Shown here: positions 59,341 through 59,682 of the stretch, piece by piece
How the letters are laid out: each line of letters begins with the position of its first letter
Position numbering within the stretch: the stretch's first letter is position 1
DNA from: Octopus vulgaris
Lineage: Eukaryota
Length of the DNA: 64,000 bases
NCBI GenBank assembly: GCA_951406725.2
Contig: OX597818.1
Coordinates: forward strand, 121,830,001 to 121,894,000
Reading direction: 5' to 3'
Translations under genes and position numbers: made by a program
Notes under the pieces: generated by a model
The model's database searches: none
Told to the model about the DNA's origin: nothing
Seen by the model: the letters and a program-made list of their open reading frames with translations, nothing else

Positions 59341-59682
59341 TTAGCAATTAAGGACAACTACTTAATAAGAAAACAACAAGAAATTGTCAGGTAGATAGCG
59401 TAAGAACCTATAAGAGAAAAATTTCGAAATAATTATTTCTTATTGAATATATTATTTATATGAGGGCATTATATACGCCAGAAGGCATTATATACATATT
59501 ACTATACCGAATATTTTCAGTAAGACATTTAAAAATATATAGACCTGTATCACAGTGACACTTACGTACTCATCAGCAGGCCTGAAATTTTTTAAATGTC
59601 TTACTTTGAAAATTGCATTCGGTGGATTAGAATAGAGTGACTAATTGTCCTCTAGTTTGGATGTATGGATATATAATGCCCT
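59341..59682 (-). mobile_element. Rod-like (TA)n-bounded insert with a damaged hammerhead at the apex (59541-59583)
   Basis: Nested inverted repeats across 59464-59682. The minus strand reads AGGCCTG-CTGATGA-GTAC GTAA GT(G)-TCACTGTGA-TA-CAGGTCT, with GAAA missing. Confidence 0.6.

What the first reader, a model, noticed from the sequence alone, without database searches (positions are those of the whole stretch)
59341..59682. Second rod-shaped insert with a hammerhead at the tip of a ~220-nt hairpin
Seen: nested inverted repeats GGGCATTATATA/TATATAATGCCC, ACCGAAT/ATTCGGT, TTTTCAGTAAGACATTTAAAAA/TTTTTAAATGTCTTACTTTGAAAA and AGACCTG/CAGGCCT. On the minus strand they close on CTGATGA-GTACGTAAGT(G)-TCACTGTGA-TA. 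The layout parallels the 37.9-kb ribozyme (quasi-palindromic stem III), but the primary sequence is unrelated and GAAA is missing. Inference: a dead copy of a second structured ribozyme family whose stem I is extended into a long rod.
Basis: partly seen in the sequence, partly recalled or inferred. Interest (0 to 1): 0.7.

Follow-up and report, generated by a model that had tools for sequence, protein, structure and literature searches.

The report
Two-armed insertion of a ribozyme repeat
The long hairpin is two shortened copies of one 481-base, hammerhead-carrying repeat joined head to head in a TA run; family copies end at two fixed points, one per arm, which suggests a Penelope-type enzyme likely copies one small, probably circular RNA from both cut DNA ends.

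Summary
The nested inverted repeats are real (z -9.2) but are not a long stem I. The insert is two 5'-truncated, head-to-head arms of one 481-nt non-coding repeat; only the innermost 7 bp are ribozyme stem. The family has an intact type I hammerhead (338 exact copies); the GAAA-less form is unique. This copy differs from the family by 27 deletions and 1 substitution, while neighbouring repeats show no deletions, so the 'dead' core may be an assembly error. Of 56 two-armed loci among 77, 51 have one arm ending at site A (~274) and the other at site B (~154), none A+A or B+B. Arms share variants (2 of 450 sites discordant, 18% when shuffled) and reach 15 kb of near-identical units. Two sister families and a young Neptune-type Penelope element show the same rule. 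Verdict: new non-LTR retrozyme family with a Penelope twin-start footprint; cleavage, circularity and partner untested. The scan noted this rule before on other repeats of this genome.

The parts
59341..59586 (-). Arm A: 5'-truncated retrozyme copy, monomer positions 438-481 then 1-~274; outer (3') end at fixed site A, joined to (TA)n; internal 42-nt deletion and about 16 small deletions
59587..59694 (+). Arm B: inverted 5'-truncated copy, monomer positions 12-~154; outer (3') end at fixed site B, an internal TA-rich stretch, joined to (TA)n; about 11-12 deletions
59586..59587 (.). Head-to-head junction of the two arms (positions 438 | 12), no microhomology
   Evidence: sequence against monomer
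59541..59583 (-). Type I hammerhead remnant: stem I 59583-59577 with 59547-59541, core 59576-59570, stem II, 5-nt deletion that removes most of GAAA near 59559, stem III 59558-59549, predicted cut after A 59548
   Evidence: intact form in family
59341..59455 (-). 'Tail': about 120 nt between sites B and A, present on arm A only
59318..59340 (.). (TA)n target, left side
59695..59719 (.). (TA)n target, right side

Best explanation
The insert is two 5'-truncated copies of one 481-nt non-coding hammerhead repeat joined head to head in a (TA)n run, and it was likely made by a Penelope-like reverse transcriptase-endonuclease copying one, probably circular, RNA from both nicked DNA ends. Shown: arm structure, two fixed outer ends with one of each per insertion, shared variants between arms, arms of many near-identical units running through the predicted cut site, (TA)n targets, an intact and covarying hammerhead in the family, and a young intact Neptune-type element with the same footprint in this genome. 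Inferred: tandem copies are transcribed, the hammerhead cuts monomers which are ligated to circles; the enzyme nicks both strands of (TA)n with a stagger; one 3' end starts cDNA at site A and the other at site B, 120 nt further 5' on the same RNA; each goes round for a variable distance; the two cDNA ends are joined, usually by a few bases of microhomology. The 'rod' is the overlap of the arms, and the ribozyme sits at its tip only because of where the two cDNAs stopped. The missing GAAA is private to this copy and is more likely an assembly error (about 0.6) than a real mutation (about 0.4).
For: Arms. End rule: 42 of 46 two-armed loci among 60 are A+B, 4 have an unclassifiable end, 0 A+A or B+B; in 17 further loci picked by the hammerhead motif alone, 9 of 10 two-armed are A+B, 1 has an odd end, 0 A+A or B+B. 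Same template: mismatch 0.0043 within arms, 0.0049 between arms of a locus, 0.0132 between loci (4 poorly aligned loci left out); 2 of 450 diagnostic-site comparisons discordant in 45 loci against 18% in 2000 shuffles, minimum 11.7%. Repeated copying: 151 intact family motifs span the cut site in 60 loci; 0 of 103 arm 5' ends lie at positions 1-3; one arm is 15,083 nt with 30 full units and 4 minority substitutions; both arms exceed 500 nt in 12 of 42 loci. Targets: (TA)n within 25 nt of both ends in 40 of 46 two-armed loci; one locus outside a pure TA run (L086) has a 10-13-bp target duplication. Junction gaps 0 to -9 in 30 of 46. Hammerhead: core columns nearly invariant; stem I pairs 1-5 paired in 184-185 of 188 motifs with changes on both sides between sister families, N17 = A, C or T, never G. 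Sister families: 15 of 15 and 9 of 12 two-armed loci A+B, read by eye. Neptune-type element: 781-aa RT plus GIY-YIG; 3 of 3 two-armed loci seen have a ~36-nt tail on one end only. Literature: a purified Penelope protein nicks and extends both strands and starts at two internal sites that bound the tail (PMC11167929); inverted 5'-truncated copy, one-ended tail and (TA)n bias are Penelope hallmarks (PMC8557442).
Against: No cleavage, ligation, circular RNA or expression was shown. The family has G10.1-U11.1 where G-C is highly conserved (PMC4209133) and a 3-nt loop on stem III, so monomer cleavage may be slow. No blastn link between the monomer and any of 50 GIY-YIG loci examined, apart from unrelated sister-retrozyme insertions nearby, so the partner is unidentified; only 150 of 6136 GIY-YIG candidates were scored. 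In vitro the anole enzyme showed no difference in start site between strands (PMC11167929). 21 of 77 loci have one arm only. Unit-private variants are never shared in register between arms (0 of 42), which fits a monomer circle but gives no positive mark of one molecule. L081 has arms that differ at a diagnostic site, and L074, L082, L085 and L088 have variants in only some units, pointing to conversion or mixed templates. Shared variants also follow from two RNAs of one source locus or from later gene conversion. Only 3 of 42 loci have sequence exclusive to each arm.
Confidence: 0.68

Rival explanations
1. Twin start as above, but from two RNA molecules (one per protomer of a dimeric enzyme), usually from one source locus.
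For: The anole protein is predicted to be a dimer (PMC11167929). L081 arms differ at a diagnostic site.
Against: Many sequence variants of the family are of similar age (15 diagnostic sites), yet 43 of 45 loci are fully concordant. Two free RNAs would not by themselves force one A and one B start.
Confidence: 0.15
2. The inverted arm is made by fold-back self-priming or template switching onto the first cDNA or an antisense template, as proposed for rotifer Penelope elements.
For: Explains identical variants in both arms; proposed in PMC3846280. The window copy itself is compatible (arm B lies within arm A).
Against: 10 of 42 loci have arm lengths that a single fold-back cannot give and 3 have 30 or more bases exclusive to each arm; the B arm is often the longer one (median 556 against 420); arm lengths are uncorrelated (rho 0.12); a fixed A end on a folded-back copy is not explained.
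Confidence: 0.08
3. Twin start on a linear, uncleaved multimeric read-through RNA, with long arrays grown later by unequal crossover; no circle is needed and the hammerhead is a passenger.
For: Uncleaved RNA was the main substrate in vitro and no reads ended at the cut site (PMC11167929); only 1 of 9 Xenopus retrozyme dimers cleaved (bioRxiv 2026.07.22.740005); G10.1-U11.1; the same minority variant recurs in 3 distant units of the 15-kb arm.
Against: No arm of the two-armed loci was seen to run into a source flank or source junction (by eye); units are nearly identical within a locus, including across the inversion; the core is conserved while stems covary across three families; the hammerhead strand folds well as a circle (z -5.1).
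Confidence: 0.2
4. One reading: a ribozyme family whose stem I has evolved into a 220-nt rod.
For: The single copy does fold as a rod with the core at its tip.
Against: The arms are duplicates of one monomer stretch; the turning point differs at nearly every locus; the monomer's stem I is 7 bp.
Confidence: 0.01

Closest known systems
Metazoan non-LTR retrozymes (Cervera and de la Pena 2020, PMC7229834: abstract, passages, sections 14 and 17 read; Li, Clavereau and Pollet 2026, bioRxiv 10.64898/2026.07.22.740005: parts 1-3 of 5 read, through the Discussion)
   Same: Non-coding, low-GC tandem repeat with a type I hammerhead in each unit, dispersed short arrays, co-existing with Penelope-like elements.
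   Different: Neither text as read describes head-to-head arms, two fixed 3' ends or a (TA)n target ('inverted' and 'target site' 0 hits in PMC7229834); molluscs are represented by mussel only; unit 481 nt is above the 170-400 nt of the first paper but inside the 51-972 nt of the second. Expression and circles were shown there, not here.
EN+ Penelope-like insertions with inverted copy and tail (Craig et al. 2021, PMC8557442, passages; Arkhipova et al. 2013, PMC3846280, passages)
   Same: Inverted 5'-truncated copy at the 5' end, tail on one end only, (TA)n bias, target duplication of about 10 bp when visible.
   Different: No protein; tail about 120 nt instead of 30-40; tail described there as 'often' or 'optional', here a strict one-of-each rule; arms are multimers of one unit.
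Poseidon of Anolis carolinensis in vitro (Frangieh et al. 2024, PMC11167929, parts 1-2 of 4 read)
   Same: Two internal start sites downstream of a hammerhead bound the tail; both target strands are primed; AT-rich target.
   Different: No strand-to-site coupling was seen in vitro; template was a linear coding RNA; start sites are closer together.
LINE-1 twin priming (recalled, no call)
   Same: Two primings give head-to-head arms joined by microhomology.
   Different: There the first start is the poly(A) end, the second varies, and arms do not overlap or repeat; here both starts are fixed and arms overlap and can each exceed one unit.

Membership tests
Type I hammerhead ribozyme (family monomer) | Core CUGANGA, GAAA and NUH with H not G | tested here: met
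Type I hammerhead ribozyme (family monomer) | Stems I, II, III can form, stem I open, with covariation | tested here: met
   constrained fold -18.9 against -21.9 kcal/mol free; pair counts over 188 motifs of three related families, which count copies, not events
Type I hammerhead ribozyme (family monomer) | G10.1-C11.1 pair | tested here: not met
   G-U wobble in this family; G-C in 28 motifs of sister families. Highly conserved rather than obligatory
Type I hammerhead ribozyme (family monomer) | Self-cleavage | not testable with these tools
   no pile-up of arm 5' ends at the cut site, 0 of 103
Type I hammerhead ribozyme (window copy) | GAAA strand present | tested here: not met
   5-nt deletion, unique in the assembly, possibly an assembly error
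Non-LTR retrozyme | Tandem units, each with a type I hammerhead | tested here: met
   period 481, arrays of up to about 31 units
Non-LTR retrozyme | No protein coding, low GC, structured monomer | tested here: met
   no ORF of 120 aa over the insert apart from one that starts at 59641 and runs on through the TA/CA microsatellite flank; 481-nt unit; circular fold z -5.1 on the hammerhead strand
Non-LTR retrozyme | Expressed as linear and circular monomers | tested here: inconclusive
   no listed holder is on record as RNA; contigs cannot tell circle from tandem
Penelope-mobilised element | Inverted 5'-truncated copy, tail at one end, (TA)n target or short duplication | tested here: met
Penelope-mobilised element | Sequence shared with the pLTR of an autonomous element | tested here: inconclusive
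   no blastn link in 50 GIY-YIG loci; only a short by-eye likeness at site A; most candidates not examined
Autonomous Penelope-like element | RT plus GIY-YIG ORF | tested here: not met
   none in the insert and units are only 481 nt

The most novel reading that the evidence does not exclude
These insertions are genomic fossils of a twin-start rolling-circle mechanism: one Penelope-type enzyme complex binds a single ribozyme-made RNA circle, primes from both strands of a staggered nick at two fixed sites about 120 nt apart, one site per strand, and each active site rolls independently for up to about 31 rounds (15 kb). This would explain at once the Penelope tail, the head-to-head inversions and the birth of retrozyme satellites.
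Probability: 0.45. Interest if true: 0.75.

Novelty: new member of a known kind. Interest (0 to 1): 0.5.

Why it matters
The single copy is ordinary. The family matters because how Penelope-like elements make tandem and inverted insertions is stated to be open (PMC8557442, PMC11167929) and the mobiliser of animal retrozymes is a hypothesis (PMC7229834; 2026 preprint). A strict one-A-one-B rule, same-template arms and 15-kb arms give countable predictions and a 481-nt template for an existing in vitro assay. Practical lesson: long hairpins with a hammerhead in TA-rich animal genomes are usually insertion footprints, and their sequence may be mis-assembled.

Tried and rejected
Rfam: no hammerhead hit at gathering level in the window; the E-value list was filled by microsatellite matches and 90 of 240 rows were not shown. 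Expression: no RNA holder listed; contigs of 4 runs guessed to be RNA cover the monomer and join across the cut site, but this cannot show transcription, strand or circularity, so it is not used as evidence. One contig (X11, depth 3.5) has 7 A-to-G changes in 121 nt, a possible editing trace but below the tool's error threshold. No contig of X15, X16, X18 or X2 showed the window's deleted forms; a hole proves nothing. Cleavage fossil: 0 of 103 arm 5' ends at positions 1-3; a mild excess at 1-20 (9 against 4.3, p 0.03, uncorrected); the excess at 411-460 is confined to loci picked with the window query and is treated as selection bias. In-register test for a multimeric template: 0 of 42 shared. 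Partner search: no link. A first reading of two Neptune 3' ends 58 nt apart was wrong, it was the TA run; the real tail is about 36 nt. Tail fold: weak (z -1.3 to -1.9) and not clearly shared between families. Earlier scan notes by sequence: nothing. Literature searches for the rule or an octopus retrozyme found no paper stating it; supplements were not read (Frangieh Figs S1-S2, Cervera Fig S9, Li tables, the last closed) and could bear on novelty; older subscription papers on Penelope structure are not in the library.

Full report
1. Observation. The four inverted-repeat pairs and the GAAA-less core are at the stated place. 59455-59690 folds as a long hairpin on either strand (z -9.15 and -8.14; 0 of 200 shuffles). 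The insert lies between two (TA)n runs in non-coding DNA of a 2.8-Gb animal genome (G000); that it is a cephalopod is a recalled impression, not tested. Rfam gave no hit at gathering level.

2. What it is. A search of the own genome gave 210 matches from 39 of 761 candidates scored, in short tandem arrays. Query positions 237-340 hit the same units as positions 1-246 but on the other strand. The unit is 481 nt (L017:1545-2025; position 1 = base after the predicted cut). The window insert is arm A (59586 to 59341, minus; positions 438-481 then 1-~274) and arm B (59587 to ~59694, plus; positions 12-~154). The three outer repeat pairs are positions ~12-154 present in both arms. Only 59577-59583 with 59541-59547 is ribozyme stem I. 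In the circular monomer the hammerhead strand folds at -125.8 kcal/mol (z -5.1, 60 shuffles; other strand z -2.5) and stem I is 7 bp.

3. The ribozyme. The intact 34-nt core occurs 338 times exactly (control 0). Core columns are nearly invariant in 158-167 aligned units. Two sister families (495 and 453 nt) keep the core and stem III and change stems I and II; over 188 motifs, stem I pairs 1-5 are paired in 184-185, with changes on both sides, and N17 is A 177, C 10, T 1 (these count copies, and there are only three or four independent lineages). This family has G-U at 10.1-11.1, where G-C is highly conserved (PMC4209133, passages), and a near-palindromic stem III that could allow dimeric folding. 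Cleavage is untested.

4. Is this copy dead? The deleted core is found once, here. Against the majority of fetched relatives the two arms carry 27 deletion events, 1 substitution and 4 inserted bases, while two neighbouring repeats and the 37.9-kb element carry 10, 2 and 20 substitutions and no deletions (a global alignment gave 29 deletions and 7 substitutions). It is the most deletion-rich of 61 loci; the next two (L067, L044) are also two-armed, but many perfect palindromes are clean. So the copy is young. Inverted duplicates are known to cause missed base calls in nanopore reads (PMC7229812, abstract); the platform of this assembly is unknown to me. I put assembly error at about 0.6 and real deletion at about 0.4.

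5. Architecture of the family. I fetched 60 of the 63 loci that I compiled. 46 are two-armed, all head to head; 42 have one outer end at A and one at B, 4 have an odd end, none is A+A or B+B; 14 are one-armed (7 A, 6 B, 1 odd) (the window itself is not counted). favours loci with an A arm, which cannot exclude A+A. A second set of 17 loci chosen only by the hammerhead motif among the first 100 listed (one of them the locus not fetched before) gave 10 two-armed: 9 A+B, 1 odd, plus 7 one-armed. Total 51 of 56, and 51 of 51 classifiable. Ends are sharp: A after position 273 or 276, B near 154 at an internal TA-rich stretch. Both ends touch (TA)n in 40 of 46; junction gaps are 0 to -9 in 30 of 46. 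L086 shows a 10-13-bp target duplication. Sister families, read by eye: 15 of 15 two-armed loci A+B (four share one junction and probably one event) and 9 of 12 (three complex).

6. One template, many rounds. Mismatch is 0.0043 within arms, 0.0049 between arms and 0.0132 between loci (window, L067, L044, L060 left out). At 15 diagnostic sites 2 of 450 comparisons differ (L074, L081), against 18% on shuffling. Arms cross the predicted cut site again and again (151 intact motifs) and none of 103 starts at it. One arm is 15,083 nt, 30 full units, 4 minority substitutions, opposite a 517-nt B arm. Arm lengths are uncorrelated, and 10 of 42 loci are out of reach of a single fold-back. Gene conversion and a shared source locus remain alternatives for the shared variants.

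7. The likely enzyme. The genome holds a young family with a 781-aa ORF: RT, a C-X4-C-X2-C linker and GIY-YIG, copies about 98% identical, ending in (TA)n. The linker marks Neptune or Nematis elements (PMC8557442). Its three two-armed loci seen (L148, L181, L182) carry a ~36-nt tail on one end only. No blastn link to the 481-nt unit was found in 50 GIY-YIG loci, so it is a candidate, not the shown partner.

8. Mechanism. Shown: points 2, 3, 5, 6, 7. From the literature: a purified Penelope protein nicks and extends both strands, starts at two internal RNA sites that bound the tail, is predicted to be a dimer, and does not need ribozyme cleavage in vitro (PMC11167929, parts 1-2 of 4); retrozyme RNAs of coral, mussel and axolotl are circles and were proposed as templates for tandem cDNA (PMC7229834, abstract, sections 14, 17). 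Inferred: transcription, cleavage and ligation of this family; staggered nicks; one strand primed at A and the other at B on one circle; independent rolling; joining of the two cDNA ends. Confidence 0.68 for the whole; above 0.95 for the two-armed retrozyme identity.

9. Novelty. A new family of a known kind. The inverted copy and one-ended tail are known for Penelope elements (PMC8557442, PMC3846280, passages) and a Penelope origin of animal retrozymes is argued in a 2026 preprint (parts 1-3 of 5). The strict pairing rule, same-template arms, 120-nt tail and very long arms were not found in six searches; supplements were not read. I stated this reading before seeing earlier notes. The scan has noted the same rule on 565- and 492-nt repeats of this genome (e1-9558670, e1-9827922, e1-8824779; unchecked notes, not independent support; the 492-nt repeat may be my 495-nt sister family, not tested). 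e1-9972483 reports mismatched arms in a 478-nt repeat; it led me to PMC3846280 and to the concordance test, and I cannot tell whether it is this family.

10. Verdict. Observation confirmed; interpretation partly supported; interest 0.5.

Noticed in passing
window 37680-38120: The 37.9-kb ribozyme element is also two-armed: query 1-145 hits the same relatives on the opposite strand to 143-403. A separate, older family with an intact core at 37958; no blastn likeness to the 481-nt unit.
   Followed up: partly
L161:2488-5810 and L162:1118-2554: Young Neptune-type Penelope family with an overlapping upstream 479-aa ORF without a convincing Pfam match and a hammerhead-like motif with U3 and A8 in place of C3 and G8 near its 3' end. 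Its L161-type copies have G-U at 10.1-11.1 where related copies have G-C, as in the youngest retrozyme family.
   Followed up: partly
L250+L251 (G000:C1:64639650-64655250): A 15-kb arm of about 31 near-identical units opposite a 517-nt arm: a satellite apparently born in one insertion.
   Followed up: yes
L041:3703-3823, run X11: One contig at depth 3.5 with 7 A-to-G changes on the hammerhead strand, some in core positions invariant in the genome; possible A-to-I hyper-editing of arm-to-arm double-stranded RNA, too weak to count.
   Followed up: no
L004:2694-2806: A perfect palindrome of about 110 bp with a different hammerhead-like core directly beside the array; probably a two-armed insertion of another Penelope-type family.
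   Followed up: no
L031:2280-3460: The flanks outside both TA runs are inverted copies of each other, so this insertion sits in the middle of an older palindrome.
   Followed up: no
L051:1128-2106, L123:2835-3164, L158:6706-7062, L100: Older sister retrozyme families with the same stem III, longer stem II and tails of about 105-115 nt.
   Followed up: partly
L151:626-1834: A 594-bp tandem repeat sharing a 21-nt stretch with site B of the monomer.
   Followed up: no
window 57693-58193, minus: A 166-aa stop-free frame whose second half looks like the end of a LINE reverse transcriptase (resemblance recalled, not tested).
   Followed up: no
L067, L044: Two more copies with many deletions and few substitutions, both two-armed; the same possible assembly fault as the window copy.
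   Followed up: partly
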